Origin: Candidatus Bathyarchaeota archaeon
GTDB lineage: Archaea > Thermoproteota > Bathyarchaeia > Bathyarchaeales > Bathycorpusculaceae
DNA length: 64,000 nt
Reading direction: 5' to 3'
Assembly: GCA_963767735.1 (NCBI GenBank)
Contig: CAVYES010000005.1
Location: 480,001-544,000 of the forward strand
The notes beneath the pieces were generated by a model. It saw only the letters and a program-made list of their open reading frames with translations, did no database searches and was not told the origin of the DNA. Position numbers and translations under genes: made by a program. Below, one piece after another: positions 1,401-23,207 of this stretch. Position 1 is the first letter of the stretch. Each line of letters opens with the position of its first letter.

Positions 1401-1403
1401 TTT

Positions 1404-8298: not shown

Positions 8299-9479
8299 GC
8301 CGTCTTCACTTTCTGGAAATATTCATCCGCAATTTTCTGAGCTTCATCAGAATCCCCAACCCTCAGATACTTCCACATCTCCAAAGCAAGCCCAGCCACC
8401 TTCTCGTCCTTGAAGAAGCTCTGAATAACCTGATTGACATTAAACGACCCAGCTTTCAATTCGGGTAATCTCATTTCCGAATCCTCCAAAATCTCAGGCC
8501 TAAAGCCCAAAACAACGTCAGCCAAAGCCCGAGTCAAAATCTGATGGACACTCTGTCTATCAATGTCTTTGCCCTCAACAACCACATGGACAAGAGGCAA
8601 CTTCAACATGCCTTCAAAAGTCTTAACCAGTTCCCTCAGGCTATCCTCAAAATGAACATAATTTAGCTTTACATCAACCTGTGGCCTAATACACTCAAGA
8701 TTAACATCTCTAACCTCGACATCATCGCCCTCAAGATCCACGAGGAAAAAGCCCTTTCCAATTTTCTTCCAACCGCTGATCTCAGTTCTGCTAATAATCT
8801 CCGAAGAACCCGGATAAGCCAGCTCACCCCCGCCAAAGGAAGCTTTAATCCGCTGGTGAAGATGCCCCATAGCAACGTAATCAAAATTTCGTGGAATCTC
8901 ATCTAAACAGACCTCAAAGGCGCCCTCAAAAGGCAAAAACTTGTCAATAGCTTCATGAAGCAGAAGAATTCCGCTTTTGCCATCCAACTGAAGGCCTCCA
9001 AGTTTCTTAAGTTCCTCCAGAAGTAACGGGCGATAGGTCCTGCTTAGATTAGACAACCCCGCAACCAAAACATCTTTTCCACCAATTTTCACCTGTTGAT
9101 GTTGAGCAGTTCCCCCAACACCAAGAATCTGCATTTGATCCTCAAAAAGCACATGAGGCGCCACACCACGACTTTTAGGTCTATCATGATCGCCCAACAC
9201 AGCAAAAACCTTAGCCTTTCCATCCAGCTTAGAGAGAAACCTCTTGAAAGCCCGGTACGCCTGTGGCGGAGGTCTTGGCGAATCAAAAAGATCCCCACAG
9301 TGAACAACAATATCCACATGCTCCTCAAGAATTTTATTGCCGATCTCATCTAAAGCGTCATAAATGTCCTTTTCCCGCTCATCCAAATTGTACTGTTTGT
9401 AACCAAGATGGGTGTCTGCCAGATGCGCAATTCTAACCATACTATTGCTTATCCTCCGCTGTGAAGCCTTCGAGTTCAT
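8295..9479 (-). CDS. mre11: DNA repair nuclease Mre11 (likely start ATG 9440)
   Basis: HLADTHLG, GDLFD, GDHD, LLHE, MGHLH, YPGS motifs. Overlaps the rad50 start. Confidence 0.93.
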   Translation of the reverse strand: MNSKASQRRISNSMVRIAHLADTHLGYKQYNLDEREKDIYDALDEIGNKILEEHVDIVVHCGDLFDSPRPPPQAYRAFKRFLSKLDGKAKVFAVLGDHDRPKSRGVAPHVLFEDQMQILGVGGTAQHQQVKIGGKDVLVAGLSNLSRTYRPLLLEELKKLGGLQLDGKSGILLLHEAIDKFLPFEGAFEVCLDEIPRNFDYVAMGHLHQRIKASFGGGELAYPGSSEIISRTEISGWKKIGKGFFLVDLEGDDVEVRDVNLECIRPQVDVKLNYVHFEDSLRELVKTFEGMLKLPLVHVVVEGKDIDRQSVHQILTRALADVVLGFRPEILEDSEMRLPELKAGSFNVNQVIQSFFKDEKVAGLALEMWKYLRVGDSDEAQKIADEYFQKVKTA

Positions 9480-11061
9480 CTCTCAAGCGTTTACTCTGGT
9501 TCTCAGAGGTCTCCTCATTCGCTTTCTCAATGGCCGACTTCATCTTGCTAACTATGTCAATGTCGCTGCCGCCTTCACGAGTCCGCCGACGCTTAACCTT
9601 TACCATAACAGGCGCTCTAGTCATCTCTCCGACAAGCACAGCTTCCCCTGTGTTAAGTCCAGGCAGATCTTCAAGTAAACTCTGCCCTAAGCGTTCCGAA
9701 CTTCTTGCAATCGCTAGTTGGTCGTCAGGATTGGTCATCCGCATAACAATCTGACTGTTGCACTGACTCAAAGCATCAGGATGAATCTTTGAAGGCCGCT
9801 GAGTAATCACAACCAAGAATACGCCAAACTTTCTGCCTTCCGCCGCAATCTTCTTAATAATTCGACTAGATTTTGTGTTGCCTTGAAAAGGAATAAACCG
9901 GTGCGCCTCTTCCACAAAAACAAAAACCGGAAATGGAAACTCGCCGTTAGAAACTTGATCATAAATATCCGATAGCAGCCTAAACGCAATGTAATCCGCA
10001 ACTTCGTCACTTAAACCTGAAAGATCAACATCAGACAAATGCCTGGGCCTAAGCAAAGCGTCAATACCCGTAGAAACGGAAGTGAATACATGCATCTTCA
10101 CAATTTGTTTAACATATTTCTGAGCAGATTTAGCACCTGCAATCTTGTTTTTTTCTACACCTTTTTCTTTCCAGCCATCAGCCTTCAGCTCTTCAAGCAA
10201 ATCCTCAGGCTGAAAAACATCTTTCTTTGCCCTCAAGTATTCAATTGCCTGCTCTAATCCTTCCTGGATATTAGTCATGTTCTTGCCAATATTTGCAATA
10301 AGGCAAATCTCATCAACGTCCAAGTCTGAGAAGCATATTTCATAAGGCTCAACCTTGCCAACTTCCCCCTCAGAGTATCTCCCAGTGCTCGCAGGGTTTC
10401 TGAATATAGTAATTCGGTCAGAAAGTTCATGTCTCTTGCCATCTGCGTTTCTTCCCAAAAACACATAGTCCGCATGTGGATCCAACATTACAATAGTTCC
10501 TCCCTTGGCAAGTAATTCATCAGCGAGAATGCCGGCAAGATACGTCTTCCCCGAACCCGTCTGTGCTAAAAGCGCCAAATGCCTTCTAAACCCTTTAATC
10601 GAAAGCGCCACAGGAACCTCGCTGCGAGTAATCAAACTGCCCACTGCTATTGATTCGTCGATTGGATACGAATAAAACTTCTCAAGCAACTCCGTTGGAG
10701 CAATATAAACGGGCTTTCCTGGAGTGATGGCTTTCTTAGGCAACTGAAGCTCACCTGAATCAGTTAAGAAACCAAGAACTCTTGCTCGCCCCCAAACCTT
10801 GCTGTCCGCAAGGCCTGACTCAATAATCTTTTTGATAATTTCAAAATTCAACTCTTTCGTCAAGGCCTGACTCGCTGACATAACTCTCTCAATCTGAGCA
10901 ATCACTTGAACCTGCTTCATCTGCCCATCCAACTCTTCTTCCGAATAGATCATCAAATACTCCCAACGCGACGGCATCTCACTGGGTTTAGAAGAAAAAT
11001 CAAAAGAAACTGAATTTGCCTCGCCGATTATTATTCCAACTTCTTTAAGGGAACCTGACAC
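9442..11061 (-). CDS. herA: HerA helicase/translocase
   Basis: N-terminal HAS barrel, HLALLAQTGSGKT, DPHADY, EEAHRF, EGRKFG, ITQRP. Confidence 0.93.
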   Translation of the reverse strand: MSGSLKEVGIIIGEANSVSFDFSSKPSEMPSRWEYLMIYSEEELDGQMKQVQVIAQIERVMSASQALTKELNFEIIKKIIESGLADSKVWGRARVLGFLTDSGELQLPKKAITPGKPVYIAPTELLEKFYSYPIDESIAVGSLITRSEVPVALSIKGFRRHLALLAQTGSGKTYLAGILADELLAKGGTIVMLDPHADYVFLGRNADGKRHELSDRITIFRNPASTGRYSEGEVGKVEPYEICFSDLDVDEICLIANIGKNMTNIQEGLEQAIEYLRAKKDVFQPEDLLEELKADGWKEKGVEKNKIAGAKSAQKYVKQIVKMHVFTSVSTGIDALLRPRHLSDVDLSGLSDEVADYIAFRLLSDIYDQVSNGEFPFPVFVFVEEAHRFIPFQGNTKSSRIIKKIAAEGRKFGVFLVVITQRPSKIHPDALSQCNSQIVMRMTNPDDQLAIARSSERLGQSLLEDLPGLNTGEAVLVGEMTRAPVMVKVKRRRTREGGSDIDIVSKMKSAIEKANEETSENQSKRLRDELEGFTAEDKQ

Positions 11062-12379
11062 GTCTATAACTCCTTCCGCGAATTATTTTCTCCCCGAACA
11101 ACTTTTCCATATAGGGGACATAGATATTATCAACCGTTTTCTTCTTAAGCCTGACTCTCTCGTCAACATTCTTCAGCCAAAAGTTGTGACAATCCAACCC
11201 ACAGTAACCCGTTGCCAAAACCTTCAAGGCCCCCTCCAAATCCAAAGTCGCTGGCTTATGCCAACCAACATCAACTAGCTTTTGATCCCAAAAAGGAATA
11301 TCAATTCTAATAGGGGAATCACGCCTGTCAAACAAAACATAAAAAGACGCAATAGCGGGAAACTCTGGAATCCCCGCAATAACCTGCGCCGCCTCATCCA
11401 CAAAACCCTTACCCACCTCTCTAAGGGTGTTCGGAAAATTCTTCCTCACATAAGACTTCGGATCTGAACGCGATTCCTCCAACCTCCTAGCCAACCGCGG
11501 TGAAGGCCCAAGAAGCAAAGGCTTAGTGTAGCCCACTGACCCAGAAAAATTCATGACCAGCTGGTAATCAGGCCTAGAACGCGCCAACTCATCAAAAACC
11601 AATCTAATCGTTTCCAACTTCTCGCCATACTTCTGCCTAAAACGCTCAAACTTATGCAACCCCAAAGTCGAGTTGTCCACAACCTCCATAAAAAGAGGCT
11701 TCAACATCCGAGCATCATCATCCTCAATTTCCAATCTCTTCAGATCCTCCCTAAAAATCAGGCTCAACAAATAATCCCTGAAAGAAGTGGACCGGCTCTC
11801 CTTGGCAACACCAAGCAAGAGAACATTGTTCTTTCTGCACAGATCAAGCAACTCTCGATAAACTTTGAAATAATCGAGAAGTATCAAACGCTCCTCTTCC
11901 ACCTTGGACTCAAGCGGAACATGCACCAACCGCCCAAAAAGTGAACCATCAATCAAAATCATGCCACACCCCAGACCGCTCTTCAAAGCATCTATAGCAA
12001 CCTGAAACTCCAGCATCTCCATTTTAACCGAAATAAACTCTCGCTCAGCAACAGAACCGCCTTTAGAGAAAAAGACGTCACTCTCAAGCCGCTTATGCTC
12101 TATTTCCCTGCAAACCGCTAAAGAACGGACAACATAGAAAACGCCTCCAGTTGAAAGCAGATTCGAGTAAACACTAGAATCAACAGCCATAACACTCAAT
12201 TCAGCCAAACTTGCACCAAGCTTCGCTGGATCACTTATTTCAACCCAAAAAGAAGGAAACTTTTCTCTAAAACGATTTGCCAACGGATTTGGCGTACCCT
12301 TCAAGACCTTATCTTTTACTGCATCTTTCTTGGGTGCTAAAGAAGCGGCAAACTCATCAAGAAACTCAGGCATAAACAT
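11045..12379 (-). CDS. nurA: NurA 5'-3' nuclease
   Basis: MAVDSS and ILIDGSL acidic motifs, GVAKES, C-terminal L..VDERV. Overlaps herA. Confidence 0.85.
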   Translation of the reverse strand: MFMPEFLDEFAASLAPKKDAVKDKVLKGTPNPLANRFREKFPSFWVEISDPAKLGASLAELSVMAVDSSVYSNLLSTGGVFYVVRSLAVCREIEHKRLESDVFFSKGGSVAEREFISVKMEMLEFQVAIDALKSGLGCGMILIDGSLFGRLVHVPLESKVEEERLILLDYFKVYRELLDLCRKNNVLLLGVAKESRSTSFRDYLLSLIFREDLKRLEIEDDDARMLKPLFMEVVDNSTLGLHKFERFRQKYGEKLETIRLVFDELARSRPDYQLVMNFSGSVGYTKPLLLGPSPRLARRLEESRSDPKSYVRKNFPNTLREVGKGFVDEAAQVIAGIPEFPAIASFYVLFDRRDSPIRIDIPFWDQKLVDVGWHKPATLDLEGALKVLATGYCGLDCHNFWLKNVDERVRLKKKTVDNIYVPYMEKLFGEKIIRGRSYRRVRFP

Positions 12380-12495
12380 ACCAACCTTAAGTCATTACAC
12401 ATTGTTGAAACAGAATACTACCGATTATAATTTAAGCGTATTTTCGTTTATGCTCACGCAATAAGCGGCATTTTTCTATCTCTTGAGTTCCGAAT

Positions 12496-13097
12496 TTACT
12501 GTGCTATTTGGCATTCTTTGTAATCTGCGAGGCAAGACTTTTTCCATTCAGAAGGCGTAAAAATCAGCCCTCGCTTAGAGAATGAATTAAACCTTTTTCC
12601 AACATTTATCATGATTTGGTGTTCAGTTACAATCGTGTCAAAGTCGAAACTTGATATTATCTTTACGCTCCCTTGAAATAATGCCCATAATTTTCATCAA
12701 CTGGAACAAAGGAGACTTTTCCTCTCAAGCGTTCGATCGGCAAGGTCTTATTCATTCTTGTTATGTTTTTCAAATAGACCCCATGATTCAAATCTATATA
12801 TTGTTCGTGAGATAATCTGTCAATCTCATCTTTGCATAGGGTAACAAACACAGAAGCAAGTGCAGCTGTCCCAAGAAACCGTTTTCCAAATTCTCCAATT
12901 AAATAGAAAACAATCCCATCATTTTCTTTTAAAGAACTTATGTTTGCCACTTTCCGCCCGTCAGAAGTATATTCTCGTAATCCCCAAAAGCCCTCAAGTA
13001 TCCTATGGTTGTAAATTTCAATCCCTTTTCTGTGATATTTCTTATTTTGGTCGTCCTTGACATTAAAAATCAAGAAATCTACCAATTGTTTTAACAC
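12496..13097 (-). CDS. EVE/PUA-like putative modified-base binding protein (apparent frameshift ~12677)
   Basis: FWGL...ISSLKENDGIVFY...FLGTA pattern. ORF 12663-13097 continues in another frame as QGSVKIISSFDFDTI to a stop at 12496. Confidence 0.55.
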
Positions 13098-14778
13098 AGC
13101 TTTTCTTAATCATAATAGTCTCAAAAATTTTCCCATGGATAGGCATTTTTTCTAAATCATGCGGCTCAAATTTCATGAGTCCACCAGCATATAACCGATA
13201 TCCCGATTCTTTTTGAACCCAATCAGCAACAGAAAAGTTCAGAACCTTGGTCAGTTCAACCAAGTCTTTAACAGAATATTTTTCTGGAAAATTAAGATAG
13301 ACTCCAAGCAGATTGGTAAGGATATGCACACGTGCTTCATTCACGACGAATTTTGGTATTCCTCTAAACATATAAGTAAATAGCAAATCAGGAGCCCTTT
13401 TTGGTGTCTTTACACTATACCAAGGATCCCTTGCTTTTGACGTAGCCAAAGTATGTAGTCCGAGCGCTTCTCCATCTCTAATATATTGCTTCAGAGTACC
13501 ATGCAAGTCATCAAATTTTATTTTTGAATCTATTGTAAGTAGATAGCATTGCTTTTTTTGTTTGCTGAAATTGTCCATTCTGTCATTGGTAAGAATTGCA
13601 TCGATGAAATCAATAGAAACCTTTGTAGGCATTATTTTTCTTAACCACTTTTGTGGAATAGCAAGTGAGGAAACAGAATCTTCTGTGAGTATGAAAAAAG
13701 CATTCGCTCCTGTTGATATGCCTCGATGGACTGAGGCTAAATCCTTTAACGTAATCGCATTCCTTTTCTTAGTTGCCACTTCTTCAGGTAATTTGGTTTC
13801 AGCTTTTTCCTCTACTGACTCAAAAAATATTACACTCGCAGCAGAATTAACAGCAAGTGATTGGGAAAAATCTCTTCTACTCAAAGGTCCGATAAAATAA
13901 TCATTTCTATCATTATAGATACCCATTTCGTCTATCGAAAACCTTCTTTCGAGACTTGAAAATAGTTTTGAGCCATACCCTGTTCGTCTCATCTCCGAAG
14001 GTAAAATAAAAGCCATTTTTCCTTTGTCGATAAAAGTTGCGGATCTGGCTAAGAAATACGAATGAAGCCCAGCAAGATTCGTTAGCCCGAGCAATTTGCT
14101 CGTTCGGTTTCTTTTTCCAAGTCTGTGAAACCTAACAAACGGTGGGTTAGAAATAATCACATCAAATTTGCTTATGCAAAGTTGTTCAAAATCGGTCCTC
14201 GATAATTCTAAGAAATTGCTATAAAAAATTTTCCATGAACATGGAGCCTTAACCCAGTCAAGGGATAAAGCGGCAGAGAGAGCAAGAAGGGGATCATTTT
14301 CCACGCCAATATAATGCATGGAGTCAGCAATTTCAGGATAAGACTTCAAAATCATAGTTGGAAAGATACCTGTTCCTGTTCCGGGTTCCAATATATTTTG
14401 TCCGTTCTTCAAAGCTAAGCGGTTGATGGTTTCTATCGCAACTTTTTGAGGAGTAAAATATTGTCCATGGTTTTTTCTATATTTTAATTCGGTAGCGTGT
14501 TCAAACAAAAAACTCAGTGTACTCGATATTTCAAAAGGGTTTGGCGTGGTTTTATGAAAAAGTTGCAACATATCTTGAAGATCTCGGGTAAACACCTTTG
14601 CGGGAAACGTCGGACAACAGACAATTCGATTAAGCGTACTATTTGTGCTTAGAGCAAGGAGCATTTGAGGGAGTAACCATTTGTCTTTTTCAACAAACCC
14701 TGTTAGTTCTATCAAAGAGCGATTTGCACCATTATTCTTGAAGGTTGTTGTCATTTTATGGCTCTTCCAAAACACCAT
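13063..14778 (-). CDS. N6-adenine DNA methyltransferase, gamma class with C-terminal TRD (likely start ATG 14754)
   Basis: GQYFTP (motif X), EPGTGTG (I), GVENDP (II), ISNPPF (IV), RGISTGAN.FF TRD-type motif. Confidence 0.9.
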   Translation of the reverse strand: MVFWKSHKMTTTFKNNGANRSLIELTGFVEKDKWLLPQMLLALSTNSTLNRIVCCPTFPAKVFTRDLQDMLQLFHKTTPNPFEISSTLSFLFEHATELKYRKNHGQYFTPQKVAIETINRLALKNGQNILEPGTGTGIFPTMILKSYPEIADSMHYIGVENDPLLALSAALSLDWVKAPCSWKIFYSNFLELSRTDFEQLCISKFDVIISNPPFVRFHRLGKRNRTSKLLGLTNLAGLHSYFLARSATFIDKGKMAFILPSEMRRTGYGSKLFSSLERRFSIDEMGIYNDRNDYFIGPLSRRDFSQSLAVNSAASVIFFESVEEKAETKLPEEVATKKRNAITLKDLASVHRGISTGANAFFILTEDSVSSLAIPQKWLRKIMPTKVSIDFIDAILTNDRMDNFSKQKKQCYLLTIDSKIKFDDLHGTLKQYIRDGEALGLHTLATSKARDPWYSVKTPKRAPDLLFTYMFRGIPKFVVNEARVHILTNLLGVYLNFPEKYSVKDLVELTKVLNFSVADWVQKESGYRLYAGGLMKFEPHDLEKMPIHGKIFETIMIKKSCVKTIGRFLDF

Positions 14779-17581
14779 CTATTATTTCCAAGAGCTTAGT
14801 CTGATTTACACAATAGTGAAGCCATTGACGCAGATCAGGATGACAAAGGATCCTAACAGGAGAAACTGATTCAAGAAGTGCGTCCTGTGCTTTATTTAGA
14901 CTCTCTGCTTCAGAAGGCAGTGTGCTTGGGTGATAATAGGTTTTCCTTTCAAGCTCTGGCATGTAAATTAAAGGACGCTCAGCATTAATTCGTTCTACAT
15001 TAGGAATGTCGACTAATATTGCAAGCTTATCTGAAAATACTTTTTCGATATCATCTGGGCATGAAAGGGATTTTGTCTGTATCTCTGAGGCTTTTTTCTC
15101 GATCAGTTCTTTAATACTTGATTGGATTTTTTCACTCAGTTCTACCCTTTTTGGCCAAGGTAATGCATTAAGGGTATTAATTAGCTTCTTATTGTGATCG
15201 TTACGAGGTATCGTTAAGACTCTTTTGTATAGTTCTCTTTTTTGGATCATGTTGATGAGAGCTATTCCACGGGAATCATCAGATAAGCCTTTTATCCATT
15301 CGAGCATAAGCCAATCTGTCCATGAAATGCCGGGATACCAATGTTTATCTTGAGAAACGTGAGGCTTATCCGCTTCTAACATTTTGAACGCATCATTGGA
15401 TTGTTTTTTGCCCTCAACGACTTCTTTAGAAATAGAAGATTTCTTAGAAATTTCAGTATTCCAGGCTAAGTTCTCAAAAGGTGGAGTGAGGTTCATTAGG
15501 AAAGTAATCAGTCTTGCTCTAATTCGCTTTATCTCGTTCTCTCCAGCTGTTGTGAATACTTCATCGGGCAAGAGCATGGTGGTAGCATATTGCAGCATTG
15601 CTTTCGAGATTCGAGAAGTATGATGCCAGTAGACAGAGGAATAAAGAAGATATCGAGCGAGACTGAATGCATCTGCACTCGCGCGACCTTTTTCATAAAC
15701 GCCAATCGTTACTTTGTGCTTAGCTCTTAAATGCTCAGGTATGGGAACAGCTGTTATGACTCTCAGTAACCGTTCAATGTCAAGTTGGCTCCCGTAAGGA
15801 ACTCGGCATTGAGCTGAATCTCTTATTATGTAGTCAGCCTTATCTGCGTCTATAGGTCCATCGATTAAAGCTGAAAGCATATCCGCTTTGAAGTCTCTGG
15901 TTTCTGATTCACCTAACTGACGACCTGAGTGTGCCCTGAGAATCTTCTTTAAGCAACTTAAGTTAACATTCCAACAATCTTTTCCCTCAATTATTTCAGC
16001 CAGAGTTCTGCCATCATCATCTTGTTTTGGATTTGATAGCAACTCAATCGAAATGCTGGAATGCCCAAAAATCTTTGGGACTACCTCACCAAGGTCATGA
16101 GCAAGAGGAAATTGCCCAAGGTCATGTACGAGTGCTGCAATTAGAACACCCTTAAGATATTGTTCGTCTACCACATTACGGAAGATGGGGTTTTGAGAGT
16201 CATGGAATAAAGCATTAACATAATTGGCAGTGTACGTATAAGCACCAAGGACATGATCGTATCGGGAATGATCAGCGGTTGGATAAACCAAAGAGACAAG
16301 ACCCAATTGGCTTATCATTTTTAACCTAGCAAGCAAAGGATGTTCAAGAAGCTTTCTCAATCGAGGAGTAATGACCGTATTTAAGTTGGGAACAACTCTT
16401 ACCACATTTTTAGCATAGATTCCTAATTCTGCGATTTTATCTTCAGGATTCCATGATCCAAGTTCTTTCTCGAGATCAATTAATACATCGTATAAATCAC
16501 TATAGAATATTGTTTTGTAGTCATATGATTGAAGACCAGGGAATGTCTCAGTTAATAAGTCTTGATCAACTAATCCCGTTTGGCTCCTTTTGCTTTCATT
16601 GGCTCCATTTAGAAGTCTTGTTGCAAGAAAATGTATGGAACGGAAAAGTGGTCTTTGGGGAAAATCATTTCTATGAGATTCAGAAATTATTGATAGTAAT
16701 TCTAAAATTGATTTTCCGATCGCGTAGTAATCCAAGTCTTTGGTAAGTTCTTTTCCTTTTACACCGCATCTAACTCTATTTGAAGATGATTTATCTAAGA
16801 ACTTTTCCTTTAGTCGAGGATCGGCGTAATAACGAGTAACAAAAACCTCAAATGATTCATTACTTTCAGGATTAATCTTTTGTGCCGATCCATAATCTAT
16901 TAAGAATAGATGCCCTTCTCTATCCAAAAGTGCGTTATCTGGTTTAACATCAAGATAGATGTAGCCTTTTTGATGGGTGTAAATAAGTGCTGATATCCAT
17001 TGATGTATCGCAAATATCAATTTCCTCATTGAATCATCAATGGCTTCCGGAGATATTTGGGCTTGATCTGAAAGTGCTAAAGATAGAGCATATTTTTTCA
17101 GCGTGACATTACCTTGTATGAAAGGCATTACTATGAAGGATAAAGAACGAAATTTATCACTGGCAACTTCAAAGTGGCCCACATCTAACGCTTGGATTAT
17201 ATTTGCGTGATTAAAAAGTGGAAGGATCTTACGCTCAGTCTCGACCATCGATGTAGGTTGACCATCTATTACAGGAAGCAGTTCTGGGGCTAAGGGTCGA
17301 TTAAACTTTAGAACGAGTTCTTGGCAAGAGATATTTCTGTGAATAGCCTTGAAAACAACGCCACTCCCACCCACAAAAAGTGGGGAAGTCATCGTACAGA
17401 TAGAATAATGGTTGATGTTAATCTGTTCATAAAGTGTTTTTAGGTACTCGACGAGGTAATTTTTTTCTTGCTCAAATTCCTTTTGCCTTTTTTCACCATA
17501 CAACTTTTTGATCTCTTCAAGCCAACGGTCGATCTCCGTTAATTTGTCCTTGTTTGGAACATCTACATGCGATTCAGCCAT
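14756..17581 (-). CDS. Fusion: Ser/Thr protein kinase + SAMHD1-like HD phosphohydrolase
   Basis: Kinase: GGSGVV, VLK, YLDVKPDN, DYG, DYYAIG. HD domain: RLKMISQLG, HSRYDHVLG, HDLG.FPLAH, DADKADYIIRD, VYWH. Confidence 0.88.
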   Translation of the reverse strand: MAESHVDVPNKDKLTEIDRWLEEIKKLYGEKRQKEFEQEKNYLVEYLKTLYEQININHYSICTMTSPLFVGGSGVVFKAIHRNISCQELVLKFNRPLAPELLPVIDGQPTSMVETERKILPLFNHANIIQALDVGHFEVASDKFRSLSFIVMPFIQGNVTLKKYALSLALSDQAQISPEAIDDSMRKLIFAIHQWISALIYTHQKGYIYLDVKPDNALLDREGHLFLIDYGSAQKINPESNESFEVFVTRYYADPRLKEKFLDKSSSNRVRCGVKGKELTKDLDYYAIGKSILELLSIISESHRNDFPQRPLFRSIHFLATRLLNGANESKRSQTGLVDQDLLTETFPGLQSYDYKTIFYSDLYDVLIDLEKELGSWNPEDKIAELGIYAKNVVRVVPNLNTVITPRLRKLLEHPLLARLKMISQLGLVSLVYPTADHSRYDHVLGAYTYTANYVNALFHDSQNPIFRNVVDEQYLKGVLIAALVHDLGQFPLAHDLGEVVPKIFGHSSISIELLSNPKQDDDGRTLAEIIEGKDCWNVNLSCLKKILRAHSGRQLGESETRDFKADMLSALIDGPIDADKADYIIRDSAQCRVPYGSQLDIERLLRVITAVPIPEHLRAKHKVTIGVYEKGRASADAFSLARYLLYSSVYWHHTSRISKAMLQYATTMLLPDEVFTTAGENEIKRIRARLITFLMNLTPPFENLAWNTEISKKSSISKEVVEGKKQSNDAFKMLEADKPHVSQDKHWYPGISWTDWLMLEWIKGLSDDSRGIALINMIQKRELYKRVLTIPRNDHNKKLINTLNALPWPKRVELSEKIQSSIKELIEKKASEIQTKSLSCPDDIEKVFSDKLAILVDIPNVERINAERPLIYMPELERKTYYHPSTLPSEAESLNKAQDALLESVSPVRILCHPDLRQWLHYCVNQTKLLEIIDGVLEEP

Positions 17582-17738
17582 TTTGATCCCCCTTAGACAG
17601 TCAATTTGTTGGATCTTACCTATATCTTATGCGCAAATCTGATATACGGAGGGGACCGTTTTGGAATTATGCAAAAACTTACACAGCACTTGCACAATCT
17701 AAGACTTTCTTTGCCTCTAAAAGGAGTCATAGCAAATT

Positions 17739-18686
17739 ATGGGTTTTAATAAGAAACTTAAAATTACGAACACAGAAGACTATGTTAAACACTTAACAAT
17801 TATCGAAGACATTGCTTATGTAAAATTGATTAGACACATAATCGCTCAACTTAAAAGTGAGCAAAAAATTGGAAAAGGTATCACCGTTTTTGGCAGATTG
17901 ATTTATTTAACGTTGCCGTGGGATGCGACAATTATAGGGGACATTCACGGAGATCTAAAAAGTTTGGTTCGTATATTAGATGGTAGCCTGTTTTTTAGAA
18001 GCGATAACTCTTATCTAATATTTTTAGGGGATTATGGGGACAGGGGCCTTTATTCACCTGAGGTTATTGCTGTTGTTCTAAGGCTGAAAGAGGCATTCCC
18101 CGACAGGGTCATAATGTTGCGAGGCAATCATGAAGGACCACAAGATATGATTCCGTTCCCCTACGATTTACCAATGCAATTTCAACAAAAATATGGATTG
18201 GAAAATGGGAACAAAATTGTGGTCGAACTACGCAAACTCTTTGATTATCTCTACAATATCGCGATAATAAAGGACAAGGCGGTACTAATTCACGGAGGGT
18301 TCCCGAGCGAAGCAAATAGTATACAGGATGTGGCTTTTGCTCATAAGAATTTTGAAAATACAAATATGGAAGAAATGCTTTGGAGTGATCCTCATGATTG
18401 CGTAAGATTGACCAAATCATCCCCTTGCGGGTCTGGCAAATTTTTTGGCAAGGAGATTACTGAGAGGTTTCTCAAAATGCTTAGTGTTAACGTTCTAATT
18501 CGCGGACATGAATATTGCAAAGAAGGTTTTAAAATTAACCATGACGGAAAAGTATTAACTTTATTTTCAAATATAGGGTCCCATTATGGTAGCAAGCAGG
18601 CGGCATATCTAGAACTTAAGACAACTGATAAATTTGAAAATGCATTCGGGCTCGAAAAAAATATTAGAATTTTAAAGGATGATTAA
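17739..18686 (+). CDS. PPP-family Ser/Thr protein phosphatase
   Basis: GDIHG, GDYGDRG, LRGNHE, HGG, LWSDP, IRGHE, TLFS signature motifs. Confidence 0.93.
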   Translation: MGFNKKLKITNTEDYVKHLTIIEDIAYVKLIRHIIAQLKSEQKIGKGITVFGRLIYLTLPWDATIIGDIHGDLKSLVRILDGSLFFRSDNSYLIFLGDYGDRGLYSPEVIAVVLRLKEAFPDRVIMLRGNHEGPQDMIPFPYDLPMQFQQKYGLENGNKIVVELRKLFDYLYNIAIIKDKAVLIHGGFPSEANSIQDVAFAHKNFENTNMEEMLWSDPHDCVRLTKSSPCGSGKFFGKEITERFLKMLSVNVLIRGHEYCKEGFKINHDGKVLTLFSNIGSHYGSKQAAYLELKTTDKFENAFGLEKNIRILKDD

Positions 18687-18999
18687 TAATCTAAGTGTGG
18701 AGTAATGCTGAAATCGCTATTAGCTAGGGCATGTTTTGGTTTAATGCGTTGACCTCATCAGTTACGGGGAAGCGCTCAGTGCGAAGAAAGGAATTCCCTA
18801 TGTCGTAAACGCGATTTAATTTGAAAAACGCATTTTTGATTAAAAACGTTTTTATGAAATAGGATCTTCGTATCTTCACACCGAAGGTTTTTCTAAATGA
18901 AGTTTTGACACCGCGTAATTATCGCGATTTTTATGACTCGCCCTCTAGAATTAATCGTTTTAATACTTGAATCGATTCCGCAGAGAGACATTAGACGAA

Positions 19000-20583
19000 T
19001 TAGTCTAACTCTATGAGGTTAATCACTTCGTTAATGTTTGAAAAATAGATATCTTTCCTTGTGGTTGCTATAACAATTTGTGTGAAATTGTTTCTTAATT
19101 CGCTTAAGAGATTTAGAAACTTCTTGATTCGTTTTTCGTCGAAGCAAATTATAGGGTCCTCCAGAATTAGTAGATTATTTTGTCCTAATTCTTCCAATGT
19201 GCCAATTCTTATAAGCATATTCAGGAAACCTTTTTCGCCTGCGCTCAATACATCAAAGTCTGTTTCTACATCACTATTTTTGAACTTAGCCATGACTTGA
19301 TCTTCTGTAATTTTAAGATCGATGCCTACGTCTATTTTGCCCAAATACCTGTTTACTCGTTCAGCAATTCGTTTAAGAGTTATTGAGATTGTAGAATCCA
19401 TGGCGGTAACTGCTAAATTTCTTAGAGATTCAGAAATTAGATTTTCTTTTTTGTAGTTTTCCAAATCGAGAGTGTAACTTTCAAGTAGCAGCTTTGTTTT
19501 CTCTTGTTCTCTTAAGAATGTGGATGTCAAAGCTAAATCATGTGAGATACGTTCAAGCCTTGAAATATGAACTACAATGTTTTTGCGCTCTTCATCTAAT
19601 TGATATGATAATTTCATTCTTTTCTCAGATAGATTATCTTGGGCATCTTTTTGATAAGCGATTATTTGATCTATGAATTTTTTGAAGTCTTGAGTTTGAT
19701 TCAAAAAAAGGTTGCTTCTACTTTGGTATTCCCCGTAAAAGTCATTCATATACTTGTCTTCAAAGAGTTTTTTGAATTTATCATCAGAAAAAAGAAATCG
19801 AATTTTCTGTTCAAAGCGGTCAATTTGTTTTAATTCATTTTCTATGTCTGCTATTGATTTAGCTCTTTCTCTTTCCTTAACTTCTTCAGCAATTTTCATG
19901 TCCTCCAGTCTTCTCAGGGTTGCTTGTTTTACTTCTAACTCGCCATCTAATTTGCTCTGTTCTTCTTCAAGTTCTGCTATTTTTTTATCTGTAATACTTA
20001 TTTCAGCCAATTGCTTTTCTGATTTGCTAACCATGTCGTTAAGAAGAGATTGTTTTGATTTTAGGTATATCGAGAATGATTTCATGTTATCTAAAACCAT
20101 TTGAGGATTCCACTGAAGACGATAAGCTGATAATATTTGACGGAATCTTTGCTGATTTAAGTCAGCCAAGTCTTGTCTTAGGTTATCGATAAACATTAGC
20201 TCATAGAATACATCCTTAGAAGGGAGATTCTTGTCGATTTTTGACAAATCTGTTACTGAGATTTCTTTGCCGTTAAAAATCGTTTTTTGGTTCGCAATGC
20301 TGTTAGATAGCCTTATTTCTCGCGATATCTCAAGTTTTTTAGAGTTTGACATTGTTAGGCTAACGGTAGCAAGATTTGATCTACCTCTAAGACCATAATG
20401 TAAATTGTCTCGTAAATTAGTACCTGAAATGGGCTCGCCATAAATGGCATAACCGATTGCATCAAGAATAGTGCTCTTCCCAGAGCCGTTTAACCCCATG
20501 ATCAAATTTATTCCTGGCTTGAAAGAGAATTGCGCTTCTTCAAATTTTCTATATCCTTTAAATCGAATACTTTCCACAATCAT
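19000..20583 (-). CDS. Short Rad50/SMC-like ABC ATPase without zinc hook
   Basis: GLNGSGKS Walker A, coiled coil, LSAGE signature, atypical LILEDP Walker B. Confidence 0.8.
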   Translation of the reverse strand: MIVESIRFKGYRKFEEAQFSFKPGINLIMGLNGSGKSTILDAIGYAIYGEPISGTNLRDNLHYGLRGRSNLATVSLTMSNSKKLEISREIRLSNSIANQKTIFNGKEISVTDLSKIDKNLPSKDVFYELMFIDNLRQDLADLNQQRFRQILSAYRLQWNPQMVLDNMKSFSIYLKSKQSLLNDMVSKSEKQLAEISITDKKIAELEEEQSKLDGELEVKQATLRRLEDMKIAEEVKERERAKSIADIENELKQIDRFEQKIRFLFSDDKFKKLFEDKYMNDFYGEYQSRSNLFLNQTQDFKKFIDQIIAYQKDAQDNLSEKRMKLSYQLDEERKNIVVHISRLERISHDLALTSTFLREQEKTKLLLESYTLDLENYKKENLISESLRNLAVTAMDSTISITLKRIAERVNRYLGKIDVGIDLKITEDQVMAKFKNSDVETDFDVLSAGEKGFLNMLIRIGTLEELGQNNLLILEDPIICFDEKRIKKFLNLLSELRNNFTQIVIATTRKDIYFSNINEVINLIELD

Positions 20584-20771
20584 AGAATTCTCTCCAATAA
20601 TGCCATATTTTTATGAATAATTTTGTCAGCTTCCTCAATTTCGCCTTTGTTTAGGGCGTTAATGTAAGCCGACATTATATCCGCAATTTCCTTTCTTTTG
20701 TTCTCAGGGATTTCCGGTAATTTTTCCTGAAGAATTGACAATAGAAGACTCTGGAAACTAAATTCGCTCAT
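20580..20771 (-). CDS. small helical protein (63 aa)
   Basis: 4-nt ATGA overlaps with both neighbours, indicating translational coupling. Confidence 0.7.
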   Translation of the reverse strand: MSEFSFQSLLLSILQEKLPEIPENKRKEIADIMSAYINALNKGEIEEADKIIHKNMALLERIL

Positions 20772-21971
20772 CTAAGACACTCCTTTATTTTTGCCATAAT
20801 ATTATCAATTGTACCCTGGTTATCGAGAAAAATTGTTTTTATCTCAATGCCATTAGCACTTGATATTTCTTGGATTTTTTCTTCAACTGCTTGTTTATTC
20901 TGATCCGCAATGTTAACAACAAAATTCATTTTTATGCTTGGATTTTTCAAATTAGCCACTTTCTCAATTTTGCCATTTATATCAGTAATGTCACTTGCGG
21001 AAAGTCTGTCACTGAATGCGCGATCTTTAGTTTCAAATATTACTAAATTATTCGAGTAAGCCGCTAGAACATCCGCTTCGATGGTAATTCCGCCTGAAGA
21101 CAGGAGCGCGTTCAATAGACGACTCGAACAACCTGCTTTTTCAAGCGTTAAAAAAATGTACGATTCAAACCAATTTCCATTCTTAAAAAAATTAACAAAA
21201 TTCTCTCTCGCTTCTTCTATTGACGAGAAACCCTTCTTATCGAAAACCTTTGTTCCCAAAAATAGATCATGAATATTTCGAGGGAGTGGATCCAATGCAG
21301 CTACTTGTTCTGGTCTGTAGGCCCTAACCAGATTTAACGTATTTGTTCTTTGTTGAATATTGGATAATTCTTTTAGAAACGTAGTCATTCCAGGAAAACG
21401 AAGAATTTTTTTATTGAGTTCTATCCTCTCATCTTGACTATAGCTGATATTAACTCCATTAGCCAATGTCATATATTCATCAAAATTGTCCTCAAAAACA
21501 GGTGGCGGGCCGTCAGCAATTAAGTCAAAGGCTTTTTTTAAGCAATCTGTTATTGCATGTTCTTTTTGGCTGTTCTCGGAAATATATTCATAATGTGCAG
21601 TCAACCGGCTTATTAAGGCTAACATGTTTGATTCTATACTTAAAAGAGCCGTTGAAATTGCTGCCTCATTATTATGCACTATTCCTGCAATAATCGCATT
21701 GGCTTGACCATCCACCCTTCTTGCCTAGATCTGCACAACTGTTAGCAAGTGTAACTTCGTCCGTTTCTATGTTGACTATATCAATTAGCTCTTTGGTTTT
21801 TATAGGTAAAGATAATCTTATAACTTCTGTATTTCTAAGAAAGTCACTTAACTTAATTTGTTTTGTCTGATATTTGGAGAATTCAAACCCTAAATTTGAA
21901 TATAGACTAACAATTGGAGGTATTCTATTTAGGATTGAATTGAGTAGTGGCATTGGCTTACTATTTTGCAC
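20768..21971 (-). CDS. PD-(D/E)xK nuclease (Card1/DUF1887-like C-terminal domain); ORFs 21672-21971 and 20768-21715 probably one gene split at ~21725
   Basis: GNWFESYI...EADVL...IFETKD. Removing one G at CTAGG joins the frames as ...SCADL-ARRVDGQANA... Confidence 0.65.
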
Positions 21972-22362
21972 TGCAAATGCTTTTAAGTTATTTGTTCCGC
22001 ATAGCCATCTAAACCTTTCGGGTTCAAATCGACACAGACTAATGCCTGTTAAAAAGATTCATAAAAATGCAAAAACGCAACGACGGTTTAAACGACGGCT
22101 TCAAGTTAACCCCTGCACCCTCATAAGTTAAAAAGGCCTATGGTCCAGCTGGTGATGCTTAGATTTTTTTCGCACGTTAGACTTTTCTTTTTCGGAAGAT
22201 TTTAGCGTCTTCAAATTCTGTGACGTATTCCATTCAAAACGGCTATAATCCCTAGCTGCCTTAGGGAAAAGGAGCTGAAGATTCTGACTGATACGATAAT
22301 TTTTCTTTGAAAGACAACATGCTGCAAATTTTTCAGGTGCAGGAGTAAGGTCATAGGTAAAA

Positions 22363-22725
22363 ATGAACTTGGAGCTTTTTCATCGTCGAAAACAGCTTTT
22401 AGCCGCTTATTACAGCGGTATCTTAAATCCGGCTTCCATGCGTGTGCTTGCGGAGCAGTATCATTGTAGCCAGGCAGCGCTATATGCGGATTGGGAGCGT
22501 CGGGCGAAATGGGAGCCTTTCATCTGGGCAAGCCAAGAAGCTCACGAAGACGGCAAAGCTTTACTTTTTCAACTGCAGCTTGCCCGTGAAGCAGCTTTGA
22601 GTCATATGCTAAATCCGCGGATAGGCGAGGGTGTAAGGGTCGGCGCCATTGGCCAATTTACTAAAGCAGTTAAAACAGAGATTGAGATGAGGCAGAGCCT
22701 TGGCTTGCTGCCAAAGGTAACTTAA
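22363..22725 (+). CDS. HTH protein resembling virus/MGE terminase-small-subunit-like proteins, possibly truncated
   Basis: N-terminal HTH-like LAEQYHCSQAALYADW and C-terminal QSLGLLPK. Resemblance is from memory only. Confidence 0.4.
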   Translation: MNLELFHRRKQLLAAYYSGILNPASMRVLAEQYHCSQAALYADWERRAKWEPFIWASQEAHEDGKALLFQLQLAREAALSHMLNPRIGEGVRVGAIGQFTKAVKTEIEMRQSLGLLPKVT

Positions 22726-22859
22726 CCTCCGCAAGTGCAGGTAAAGCAGCAGTAAACTTTGATGCCCAACAGAACCAGAAATCCAGCAATCGGGGGCGCA
22801 GGAACACTCTCAGAAATCGCTTACGCATGGTCACTAAAACGATTGTAATAGCTTTCGAC

Positions 22860-23207
22860 CTATGAAATCTTAAGGTAACTCTTTATTAGTAGTTTGATTT
22901 GGTCAAAGTGGCATTGTTCAATTACGCCAAACCTGTCCAGGAATCTTGTGGATGAAGCAGTGAGGCAACGCATTTGATAAATTAATGCAACAGAATTCAT
23001 TGAGAGTCCGTTGGTGTTTGACATTTTTACTTGGTATGAGTAAGGAAAACGCAAGCAATCTTGATTTTTGGTCAGTGGTACAACCATAGTTACATTGGCT
23101 TGAGGATGCATGGCCATTACGATTGCGGGGCGCTCCCCTGTCTGTTCGTGCCCCTCAGCATCGGGCAAATTGACTCTCCATATTTCACCAGGTTGCATAC
23201 GTGGCAT
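22860..23207 (-). CDS. mazF: MazF/PemK endoribonuclease toxin
   Basis: GEIWRVNLP...GHEQTGERPAIV...VVPLT...NGL...S.ALIYQMR. Confidence 0.9.
   Translation of the reverse strand: MPRMQPGEIWRVNLPDAEGHEQTGERPAIVMAMHPQANVTMVVPLTKNQDCLRFPYSYQVKMSNTNGLSMNSVALIYQMRCLTASSTRFLDRFGVIEQCHFDQIKLLIKSYLKIS

What the first reader, a model, noticed from the sequence alone, without database searches (positions are those of the whole stretch)
12496..18686. Candidate new defence system: kinase-dNTPase + adenine MTase + EVE reader, with divergent PPP phosphatase
Seen: three tightly coupled minus-strand genes. The kinase-HD stop is 1 nt from the MTase ATG 14754, and the MTase overlaps the EVE-like ORF. An intact PPP phosphatase starts 157 bp away on the opposite strand, and there is no restriction endonuclease in the operon. 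Known: dNTP depletion is an antiviral strategy (bacterial dGTPases, SAMHD1), SAMHD1 is regulated by CDK phosphorylation and PP2A, and EVE domains bind modified bases. Inference: a self/non-self methylation mark coupled to a phospho-switched nucleotide-depleting effector, a combination I cannot match to a named system.
Basis: partly seen in the sequence, partly recalled or inferred. Interest (0 to 1): 0.88.

Follow-up and report, generated by a model that had tools for sequence, protein, structure and literature searches.

The report
Kinase-dNTPase plus adenine methylase module
A protein kinase fused to a SAMHD1-like enzyme that destroys DNA building blocks sits next to a DNA adenine methylase, and this gene pair recurs in scattered archaea and bacteria, so it looks like an undescribed, probably antiviral, two-gene system.

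Summary
They are a 941-aa Ser/Thr kinase fused to a complete SAMHD1/EF1143-type dNTPase (14756-17581, -), an Eco57I-like N6-adenine MTase whose ATG at 14754 lies 1 nt past the kinase-HD stop, an overlapping small ORF, and an intact PPP phosphatase 157 bp away on the other strand.

- **MTase link:** among 31 non-redundant full-length fusions (>=40% identity) from Bathyarchaeia, Acidobacteriota, Hydrogenedentota, Burkholderiaceae and metagenomes, 29 of the 30 assessable have the homologous MTase directly downstream. The two proteins co-diverge (Mantel r 0.92).
- **Phosphatase:** it is an optional accessory, PPP in 5 loci and PP2C in 2.
- **Small ORF:** it is weakly EVE/YTH-like. Its tail carries two frameshifts, no other locus has it, and its closest genome-held relative found sits among housekeeping genes.
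- **Rarity:** the fusion was found in 0 of 40 relatives and in 1 of 401 sampled genomes of the phylum (the window's own). This genome also keeps its standalone HD dNTPase.

No PADLOC or NCBIfam system model fits; MADS scores fall far below cut-off. My literature searches found no description.

Best reading (about 0.5): a methylation-associated, phospho-regulated, nucleotide-depleting defence module. Nothing functional was tested.

The parts
14756..17581 (-). Kinase-dNTPase fusion (941 aa, P0001). It has an N-terminal helical hairpin, a Hanks-type Ser/Thr kinase (about residues 61-300, nt 16682-17401), a conserved linker (301-400) and a SAMHD1/EF1143-type HD dNTP triphosphohydrolase core (about residues 400-941, nt 14759-16384) with a disordered insert at 705-745.
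   Evidence: Pfam. PDB phmmer hits 2q14, 2hek, EF1143 and SAMHD1. AF2 pLDDT 84.5, pTM 0.82. Foldseek: EF1143 E 6e-12 and SAMHD1, target TM 0.63-0.70 over about 550-590 columns. Kinase K92, E116, D211, K213, N216 and HD H443, H486, D487, D580, D583 are invariant in 34 homologues.
13063..14754 (-). N6-adenine DNA methyltransferase (563 aa from ATG 14754; 571 aa from ATG 14778). It is gamma-class, Eco57I/TaqI-like, with a C-terminal target-recognition-type domain. It is the conserved partner of the fusion.
   Evidence: Pfam Eco57I 9.5e-9, N6_Mtase 1.5e-7, M_Eco57I_C 2.4e-3. PADLOC MTase_II 1.3e-45. Motif I G125/G127 and N203-P204-P205 are invariant in 29 family members. A homologue lies directly downstream in 29 of 30 assessable loci.
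12564..13097 (-). Small EVE/YTH-like (PUA-like fold) ORF. The intact reading is 12663-13097 (144 aa; probable start TTG 13085). The C-terminal tail continues in two other frames to about 12564. It is specific to this locus.
   Evidence: Eight homologues of 51-82% identity and 112-175 aa, mostly 161-175. Two frameshifts. Pfam EVE matched by 7 of 9 members at E<=1, best 4e-4. Foldseek top hits are MJECL36, YTH domains, VcaM4I, PH1033 and the McrB N-domain.
17739..18686 (+). PPP-family Ser/Thr phosphatase (315 aa), divergent from the fusion gene. It is an optional accessory of the module.
   Evidence: Metallophos 1.1e-24. Catalytic motifs are present. A PPP homologue is adjacent in 5 of 31 related loci, with the same divergent layout in L046. 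PP2C takes the same upstream divergent position in L065 and L073. The window's copy falls outside the clade formed by the four same-genus PPP genes in the tree.
17582..17738 (.). 157-bp divergent intergenic region between the fusion gene and the phosphatase gene. It presumably carries both promoters.
   Evidence: Coordinates. Promoters were not analysed.

Best explanation
The functional unit is a horizontally mobile two-gene operon: a Ser/Thr kinase fused to a SAMHD1-type dNTPase, followed by an N6-adenine DNA methyltransferase.

Most likely it is a methylation-associated immune module of the RM/BREX/MADS kind, in which the nuclease is replaced by nucleotide depletion. All of the following steps are inferred.
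- The MTase marks the host's own DNA.
- The MTase, or a fusion-MTase complex, reports unmethylated incoming DNA.
- The kinase converts that report into phosphorylation of itself or of the dNTPase.
- The dNTPase then hydrolyses dNTPs and stalls viral replication.
- Where present, a PPP or PP2C phosphatase resets the switch.

Shown here: the architecture, intact catalytic residues, strict gene linkage, co-divergence of the two proteins, and a rare, patchy, cross-domain distribution in variable regions.

In this window the EVE/YTH-like ORF is a local, decaying add-on and not a core part.
For: - **Linkage:** 29 of 30 assessable non-redundant loci have the MTase immediately downstream on the same strand, with a gap of -3 to 174 nt.
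- **Co-divergence:** Mantel r 0.915; 0 of 2000 permutations reach it.
- **Spread:** hosts span Bathyarchaeia, Acidobacteriota, Hydrogenedentota and Burkholderiaceae.
- **Rarity:** the fusion is absent from 40 of 40 relatives, which all keep only a ~430-aa HD protein, as does this genome in addition. It was found in 1 of 401 sampled genomes of the phylum. The island DNA 12402-22800 is not in 60 genomes of the genus.
- **Catalysis:** kinase and HD residues are invariant, and the fold is a full dNTPase.
- **Phosphatases:** Ser/Thr phosphatases of three lineages were recruited next to the pair in 7 of 31 loci.
- **Neighbours elsewhere:** they include type I, IIG and II RM genes, TmtA, SNF2 helicases, integrases and a relaxase.
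- **This window:** the module lies between a DrmD/TmtA-like pair, an ATPase+nuclease pair and a MazF-like gene.
- **Precedent:** dNTPase effectors that a partner enzyme restrains exist, e.g. Clover CloA/CloB (passages of PMC12265719).
Against: - No experiment and no expression data exist.
- The fusion has no recognisable DNA-binding or methyl-reading domain, so how methylation status would reach the effector is unknown.
- The MTase C-terminal (specificity-type) region is as conserved as its catalytic region (mean pairwise identity 0.42 against 0.41). This is unlike the usual diversification of RM specificity.
- L023 keeps a catalytically intact fusion with no adjacent MTase.
- A wider family of kinase-dNTPase fusions lacks the MTase. 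The N-terminal 400 aa gave 153 representatives at E<=1e-10. The six distant (25-33% identity) full-length fusions recovered had no P0002-like MTase. Of the three whose neighbours were scanned, L029 and L031 sit among metabolic genes and L030 has a GmrSD-like neighbour.
- Some neighbours are nucleotide-metabolism genes: thymidylate kinase x2, nucleoside deoxyribosyltransferase x3, RNR x1.
Confidence: 0.5

Rival explanations
1. This is a non-immune regulatory module. A kinase-controlled dNTPase tunes dNTP pools with the cell cycle or stress, and the MTase is an epigenetic or replication-timing partner in the manner of Dam or CcrM.
For: The broader kinase-dNTPase family exists without the MTase: L029 and L031 have metabolic neighbours, while L030 has a GmrSD-like one. 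The MTase specificity-type region is not hypervariable. Thymidylate kinase, RNR and deoxyribosyltransferase genes occur among the neighbours. A paper listed (title and abstract seen only) reports a dNTPase that promotes cell-cycle progression in Caulobacter.
Against: The module is in 1 of 401 sampled genomes of the phylum and 0 of 40 close relatives. The host keeps its ordinary standalone HD dNTPase. Close homologues are scattered across two domains. It lies in a segment missing from 60 genomes of the genus, among defence-type genes.
Confidence: 0.2
2. This is a selfish addiction or toxin-restraint pair. The kinase-dNTPase is a growth-arresting toxin. The MTase keeps it off either by maintaining genome methylation (RM-like post-segregational arrest) or by a direct regulatory act unrelated to marking self DNA (Clover-like restraint).
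For: The linkage is tight, with a fixed gene order, overlapping or near-overlapping coding regions and co-divergence. Clover's CloA is toxic without CloB (passages of PMC12265719). The pair occurs near integrases, transposases and a relaxase.
Against: L023 carries an intact, catalytically complete fusion with no adjacent MTase. Addiction and defence are not mutually exclusive, so this is partly a sub-case of the best explanation.
Confidence: 0.15
3. One reading: an obligatory four-part system in which the EVE-like protein reads the methyl mark and the PPP phosphatase is a fixed component.
For: The small ORF overlaps the MTase 3' end. Its fold resembles the EVE and YTH domains that bind modified bases, including m6A readers. 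The phosphatase is divergently adjacent here and in L046.
Against: No EVE-like homologue is present in any of 78 related loci. The window copy has two frameshifts. The homologue in G190 lies between a zinc-ribbon gene, CTP synthase and UbiA genes. The family is near-universal in two other families of the phylum that lack the fusion. A phosphatase is present in only 7 of 31 loci.
Confidence: 0.05
4. This is chance adjacency of an orphan MTase and an unrelated kinase-HD gene.
For: None beyond the lack of functional data.
Against: 29 of 30 loci across phyla keep the same order and strand, with Mantel r 0.915.
Confidence: 0.02

Closest known systems
MADS (methylation-associated defence system, mad1-mad8; Pseudomonas aeruginosa)
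   Same: It combines an N6-adenine MTase with a Ser/Thr kinase in one defence operon. The best PADLOC hit of the kinase part is mad6 (1.1e-15), and mad2 hits the MTase at 8.6e-15.
   Different: MADS has eight genes with two ATPase-nuclease modules (passages of PMC13662399). Here there are two genes, no nuclease, and the kinase is fused to a dNTPase. NCBIfam MADS6, MADS2 and MADS3 score 23.5, 27 and 22.7 bits against cut-offs of 460, 720 and 420.
BREX type 2 / Pgl (PglW kinase, PglX MTase, PglY/BrxC ATPase, PglZ phosphatase)
   Same: It has the kinase + adenine MTase + phosphatase logic, and the MTase carries the Eco57I Pfam domain. That PglX carries the same domain is recalled, not tested here.
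   Different: PglW couples its kinase to a NERD nuclease and DNA-binding modules (passages of PMC12839542). Here there is no BrxC, PglZ or helicase. None of the 25 best PADLOC families shown for any of the four proteins is a BREX/Pgl component.
Bacterial dGTPase/dNTPase defence genes and the Clover system (CloA dNTPase + CloB)
   Same: The effector is an HD-type dNTP triphosphohydrolase whose activity must be restrained by a partner. Clover is likewise a two-gene layout (passages of PMC12265719).
   Different: Regulation there is by nucleotide signals (dTTP, p3diT). Here it would be by a fused protein kinase with an MTase partner. 'Kinase' and 'methyltransferase' occur 0 times in the main texts of PMC12265719 and of the dGTPase fusion survey PMC13519002. 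Supplements were not seen.
Human SAMHD1
   Same: The catalytic core fold and the catalytic residue pattern match. From recall, SAMHD1 is controlled by CDK phosphorylation and PP2A dephosphorylation, a logic mirrored here by the fused kinase and the neighbouring phosphatase.
   Different: The kinase is fused in cis, there is no SAM domain, and there is a partner MTase. Sequence identity is 14-17% in the structural alignments. Whether phosphorylation regulates this enzyme is untested.
Type II restriction-modification (gamma-class N6A MTase such as the Eco57I/TaqI group)
   Same: The MTase matches the PADLOC type II MTase model at 1.3e-45, including the C-terminal domain.
   Different: There is no restriction endonuclease in the operon here. 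No single nuclease family recurred beside the pair across the 26 loci scanned, although one type II REase, three type I REase and one Mrr-like ORF occur singly.

Membership tests
MADS | MAD6 kinase equivalog (NCBIfam NF047741, cut-off 460 bits) | tested here: not met
   23.5 bits
MADS | MAD2 MTase equivalog (NF047738, cut-off 720 bits) | tested here: not met
   27 bits
MADS | Eight-gene operon with MAD3/MAD4 and MAD7/MAD8 ATPase-nuclease modules | tested here: not met
   The conserved unit has two genes. The adjacent NurA-HerA-Mre11-Rad50 operon occurs without the pair in G430, and the homology ends at window 12401.
BREX type 2 / Pgl | PglX, PglZ, BrxC/PglY and PglW components | tested here: not met
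   No BREX/Pgl family is among the PADLOC hits shown for the four proteins. The phosphatase and the small ORF have 0 PADLOC families.
Type II restriction-modification | N6-adenine MTase with motif I and NPPF/Y motif IV | tested here: met
   Pfam and PADLOC hits. G125, G127 and N203-P205 are invariant.
Type II restriction-modification | Cognate restriction endonuclease in the operon | tested here: not met
   No nuclease domain in the three minus-strand genes. No recurrent nuclease neighbour in 26 loci.
SAMHD1/EF1143-type dNTP triphosphohydrolase | HD metal-binding residues (H...HD...D) and the DxDKxDYxxRD motif | tested here: met
   H443, H486, D487, D578, D580, K581, D583, Y584, R587 and D588 are invariant in 34 sequences. 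The mapping to SAMHD1 residue numbers is recalled, not computed.
SAMHD1/EF1143-type dNTP triphosphohydrolase | Whole catalytic-core fold, including the C-terminal lobe | tested here: met
   Foldseek: 3irh E 6.2e-12, target TM 0.68; SAMHD1 target TM 0.65-0.70 over about 570-590 columns.
SAMHD1/EF1143-type dNTP triphosphohydrolase | dNTP hydrolysis to nucleoside + triphosphate; allosteric nucleotide activation | not testable with these tools
   Needs an enzyme assay.
Hanks-type Ser/Thr protein kinase | Gly-rich loop, VAIK Lys, alphaC Glu, catalytic D-x-K-x-x-N, DFG Asp | tested here: met
   G71, G72, K92, E116, D211, K213 and N216 are invariant; D229 is conserved in >=90%. Pkinase 66.7 bits against a cut-off of 31.7.
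EVE domain (PF01878) | Pfam gathering score of 23 bits | tested here: not met
   The window ORF scores 12 bits, E 0.22. The G190 homologue scores 22.1 bits, E 1.6e-4.
EVE/YTH (PUA-like) fold | Structural similarity to solved EVE or YTH domains | tested here: inconclusive
   Model pLDDT 64. The top Foldseek hits are consistently EVE/YTH proteins but weak: E 1.5e-3 to 5e-2, TM 0.31-0.47.
PPP-family Ser/Thr phosphatase | GDxHG, GDxxDRG and GNHE motifs; Metallophos domain | tested here: met
   Motifs read in the translation. Metallophos 88.4 bits against a cut-off of 21.5.

The most novel reading that the evidence does not exclude
The pair is a new class of immunity shared by archaea and bacteria. 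DNA adenine methylation provides self/non-self information to a protein-kinase switch that turns on a SAMHD1-type dNTPase. That would make it a nuclease-free 'restriction' system acting through nucleotide starvation. It would also be a prokaryotic counterpart, and possibly an evolutionary precedent, of the kinase/phosphatase control of human SAMHD1.
Probability: 0.3. Interest if true: 0.85.

Novelty: new variant of a known kind. Interest (0 to 1): 0.66.

Why it matters
If the pair is a defence system, it joins two known immune principles: methylation-based self-marking and dNTP starvation. The link would be a Hanks-type kinase switch, with no nuclease involved. That would widen the idea of 'restriction'. 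It would also give a tractable two-gene model for how a SAMHD1-type enzyme is controlled by phosphorylation, and it would add a system present in poorly studied soil archaea and Acidobacteriota. Even if it is not immune, a conserved kinase-dNTPase/MTase couple would be a new link between DNA methylation and nucleotide-pool control.

Tried and rejected
- **Locus search with the single protein:** The search for related loci in genome contigs found no relative.
- **Complex prediction:** fusion residues 1-400 against the MTase scored 0.00. The verdict was 'no answer', so it is evidence neither for nor against binding. The dNTPase half plus the whole MTase exceeded the size limit and was not tried.
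- **Sequencing runs:** no RNA holder was listed. Contigs of four soil-metagenome runs lie on parts of 12400-18700 with no differences, but none covers 12611-12821, where the first frameshift lies; the second, near 12,590, falls in a bin with only partial cover. Whether the frameshifts are real or assembly errors stays open.
- **Plasmids and phages:** tblastn found no full-length fusion. There was one HD-only hit on a Thermomicrobium megaplasmid and nothing in phages. One viral contig holds a distant (29%) fusion; I did not follow it up.
- **PPP tree:** it did not resolve whether the window's phosphatase came in with the module. It shows only that the window copy lies outside the clade of the four same-genus PPP genes in the tree.
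- **A larger MADS-like system:** I considered whether the adjacent NurA-HerA-Mre11-Rad50 operon and the pair form one such system (mad3 and mad8 PADLOC hits). I rejected this because G430 has that operon at about 86% nt identity without the pair, and no related locus carries it.
- **Effector swapping:** I searched the N-terminal kinase+linker for other fusion partners. Nearly all long matches are proteins of about 850-1000 aa with the same layout.
- **Literature:** searches found no paper describing a kinase-dNTPase fusion with an MTase. Supplements are closed, so tables of predicted systems or domain fusions (for example in PMC13519002) could hold it unseen. The original MADS paper, Tal et al. 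2022, Gao et al. 2020 and the SAMHD1 phosphorylation literature were not read here and are cited from recall or through citing papers.
- **Rfam:** nothing on 4000-26000.


Full report
**Observation**

The four ORFs are as described.
- Kinase-HD fusion: 14756-17581(-), 941 aa.
- MTase: 13063-14778(-).
- Small ORF: 12663-13097(-).
- PPP phosphatase: 17739-18686(+).

Direct reading shows the fusion's TAA at 14758-14756, with an ATG at 14754 one base later; an upstream ATG at 14778 is also open. The MTase stop is at 13065-13063. The small ORF starts at GTG 13097 or, in line with its homologues' N-termini, at TTG 13085. The divergent intergenic space to the phosphatase is 157 bp.

Pfam results:
- fusion: Pkinase 2.9e-18, HD_assoc_2 3.4e-12, HD;
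- MTase: Eco57I, N6_Mtase and M_Eco57I_C;
- phosphatase: Metallophos 1.1e-24;
- small ORF: nothing at threshold.

The phosphatase carries the GDxHG, GDxxDRG and GNHE motifs.

**The fusion protein**

An alignment of 34 homologues keeps these residues invariant or nearly so:
- the kinase Gly loop, K92, E116, D211-x-K213-x-x-N216 and D229;
- the HD residues R440, H443, H486-D487, H495, H507 and D578-x-D580-K-x-D583-Y-x-x-R587-D588.

A PDB sequence search hits the EF1143, 2q14 and 2hek phosphohydrolases and SAMHD1. The AF2 model is confident (pLDDT 84.5, pTM 0.82). Foldseek aligns about 550-590 columns to EF1143 (E 6e-12) and SAMHD1, with target TM 0.63-0.70. Residues from about 400 to 941 are therefore a whole dNTPase core and not merely an HD motif. 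Residues 705-745 are a low-confidence insert.

**The conserved unit**

More than 120 clusters of full-length homologues (40-63% identity) exist. Where they are named, the names are Bathyarchaeia or Nitrososphaerota MAGs.

Pattern scans gave 25 loci from species genomes and 53 from metagenomes. After merging copies that are >=97% identical, 31 full-length fusions of >=40% identity remain.
- 30 of them have >=400 bp of downstream sequence.
- 29 of those 30 have a homologue of the window's MTase directly downstream on the same strand, with an aligned gap of -3 to 174 nt.
- The exception is L023 (duplicate L059). L024 ends 2 bp after the gene.
- Four further C-terminal fragments also have the MTase downstream.

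All-against-all comparison of neighbours found only these two genes shared across loci, plus the phosphatase. Pairwise identities of the fusion and the MTase correlate strongly: Mantel r 0.915, with 0 of 2000 permutations reaching it, across 26 loci including the window.

**Accessory parts**

A PPP homologue is adjacent in 5 of the 31 loci, in three arrangements.
- Divergent upstream, as in the window: L046.
- Upstream on the same strand: L055, L077.
- Downstream of the MTase: L022, L079.

Two more loci, L065 and L073, have a PP2C phosphatase divergently upstream.

The PPP genes fall into two well-separated clades. The window's copy lies outside the well-supported clade formed by the four same-genus PPP genes placed in the tree, and the tree is otherwise unresolved. 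PPP homologues of 33-49% identity also exist in 17 of 30 relatives that lack the fusion; the four I examined lie in a different gene context. Repeated, independent recruitment of Ser/Thr phosphatases argues that reversible phosphorylation matters to the module. It is nevertheless optional.

**The small ORF**

It has eight real homologues (51-82% identity; 112-175 aa, mostly 161-175).

The window copy loses frame twice in its last ~35 codons.

Evidence for the fold:
- Pfam EVE is matched weakly by 7 of 9 members (best E 4e-4; window copy 12 bits).
- The G190 homologue scores 22.1 bits against a cut-off of 23.
- The AF2 model is mediocre (pLDDT 64), yet its best Foldseek hits are consistently EVE and YTH proteins: MJECL36, YTH m6A readers, VcaM4I, PH1033 and the McrB N-domain (E 1.5e-3 and weaker).

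Evidence against membership of the system:
- No homologue is in any of the 78 related loci.
- The family occurs in 43 of 401 genomes of the phylum and is near-universal in two families (14 of 17 and 17 of 24). That draw held no fusion in any family other than the window's own genome.
- The G190 copy sits between CTP synthase, a zinc-ribbon gene, UbiA and radical-SAM genes.

It is EVE/YTH-like, but it is not a conserved member of the system.

**Context and distribution**

The fusion was not found in 40 relatives (24 of the same genus, 16 of the same order). All of them, and this genome too, carry a ~430-aa standalone HD protein. At E<=1e-40 the fusion is in 1 of 401 sampled genomes of the phylum, the window's own. 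The DNA 12402-22800 has no counterpart longer than about 240 nt in 60 genomes of the genus.

The neighbouring NurA-HerA-Mre11-Rad50 operon is itself rare in the genus: NurA is in 3 of 26 genomes. It is present in G430 at about 86% nt identity, with homology ending at window 12401 and no pair beside it. It is therefore a separate unit.

Among 144 neighbour ORFs from 26 related loci, PADLOC and Pfam found:
- defence genes: type I, IIG and II RM genes, TmtA and SNF2 helicases;
- mobility genes: integrases, transposases and a relaxase;
- other genes: response regulators, thymidylate kinase, nucleoside deoxyribosyltransferase and RNR.

In the window the pair lies between a DrmD/TmtA-like pair, an SMC-like ATPase plus a PD-(D/E)xK-like gene, and a MazF-like gene.

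**Evidence against the defence reading**

- L023 keeps every catalytic residue without an adjacent MTase.
- More distant fusions (25-33% identity; Dehalococcoidia, Microbacterium, Solirubrobacteraceae, Chloroflexi) have no such MTase. Of the three scanned, L029 and L031 have metabolic neighbours and L030 has a GmrSD-like one.
- The kinase+linker module is found almost only in proteins of about 850-1000 aa, so the fusion is an old and broad family of which the MTase-linked clade is one branch (ESM Atlas clusters).
- The MTase C-terminal region is no more variable than its catalytic region.
- No DNA-binding domain is evident in the fusion.

**Comparison with known systems**

- PADLOC's best hits are domain-level only: mad6 and PD-T4-6 for the kinase, MTase_II and mad2 for the MTase.
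- NCBIfam MADS equivalogs score 23-27 bits against cut-offs of 420-720.
- MADS is an eight-gene system with two ATPase-nuclease modules (passages of PMC13662399).
- PglW of BREX type 2 couples its kinase to a nuclease (passages of PMC12839542).
- A 2026 survey of dGTPase fusions lists SAM, NLR, TIR, CARD, death and SIR2 partners, and its main text never uses the word kinase.
- Clover shows that a dNTPase effector can be held in check by a partner enzyme.
- Six literature searches found no description of this pair. Supplements were not available.

**Verdict**

I rate it a new variant of the methylation-associated defence kind with a nucleotide-depleting, kinase-switched effector. Confidence is about 0.5 for the defence reading and lower for the mechanistic steps, all of which are inferred.

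Noticed in passing
window 5539-12379 (-): An archaeal-type NurA-HerA-Mre11-Rad50 operon lies directly downstream of the module. NurA was found in only 3 of 26 genomes of the genus. HerA is single-copy in this genome. G430 carries the operon at about 86% nt identity. GC here is 0.44-0.45, against 0.35-0.39 in the adjacent segment. A DSB-repair operon that is accessory within a genus is unusual.
   Followed up: partly
window 19000-21715 (-): An SMC/Rad50-like ABC ATPase (527 aa; PADLOC mad3 1.5e-17, PtuA, GajA) lies next to a 315-aa protein that matches the nuclease part of the CARF_PDDEXK/Csx1 models (5e-10). It is a possible separate ATPase-nuclease defence pair. It is not found beside the kinase-dNTPase pair in other loci.
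   Followed up: partly
window 3-4691 (+): The C-terminal part of a DrmD-like SNF2 helicase (1.3e-55) is followed by a 1095-aa TmtA-like sacsin/HATPase protein (2.2e-69) with a C-terminal type IV methyl-directed REase-like stretch. A TmtA-like gene also neighbours the pair in one other locus.
   Followed up: no
window 22860-23207 (-): A MazF/PemK-like toxin ORF (PemK_toxin 1.8e-14) lies at the far edge of the variable segment.
   Followed up: no
window ~22050-22230 and 22348-22789: A short element (about 40-150 nt) matches at 72-97% identity in many genomes of the genus, several times in some. ORF120 (22363-22725) has an 87% nt copy elsewhere in this genome at C4:188866-189309. No Rfam family or tRNA was found there. 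It may be a mobile-element or island-border repeat.
   Followed up: partly
L047:7052-7717 and other neighbours in A3: Nucleotide-metabolism genes recur next to the pair in other genomes: thymidylate kinase in 2 ORFs, nucleoside 2-deoxyribosyltransferase in 3 and the RNR large subunit in 1, out of 144 neighbour ORFs.
   Followed up: partly
L025:4080-7550; L057:6216-7958; L046:10947-11843: There are variants of the locus. L025 has two tandem MTase paralogues after the fusion. L057 has a second Eco57I-like MTase upstream on the opposite strand. The closest locus, L046, has an Mrr_cat nuclease-like gene about 550 bp after the MTase.
   Followed up: no
L133:5641-7998: An IMG/VR viral contig encodes a distant (29% identity) kinase-dNTPase fusion.
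   Followed up: no
G000:C5:54880-55587: The genome's ordinary standalone HD dNTPase-like gene (~430 aa, 29% identical to the fusion's HD part) is present alongside the fusion. All 40 relatives have one too.
   Followed up: partly
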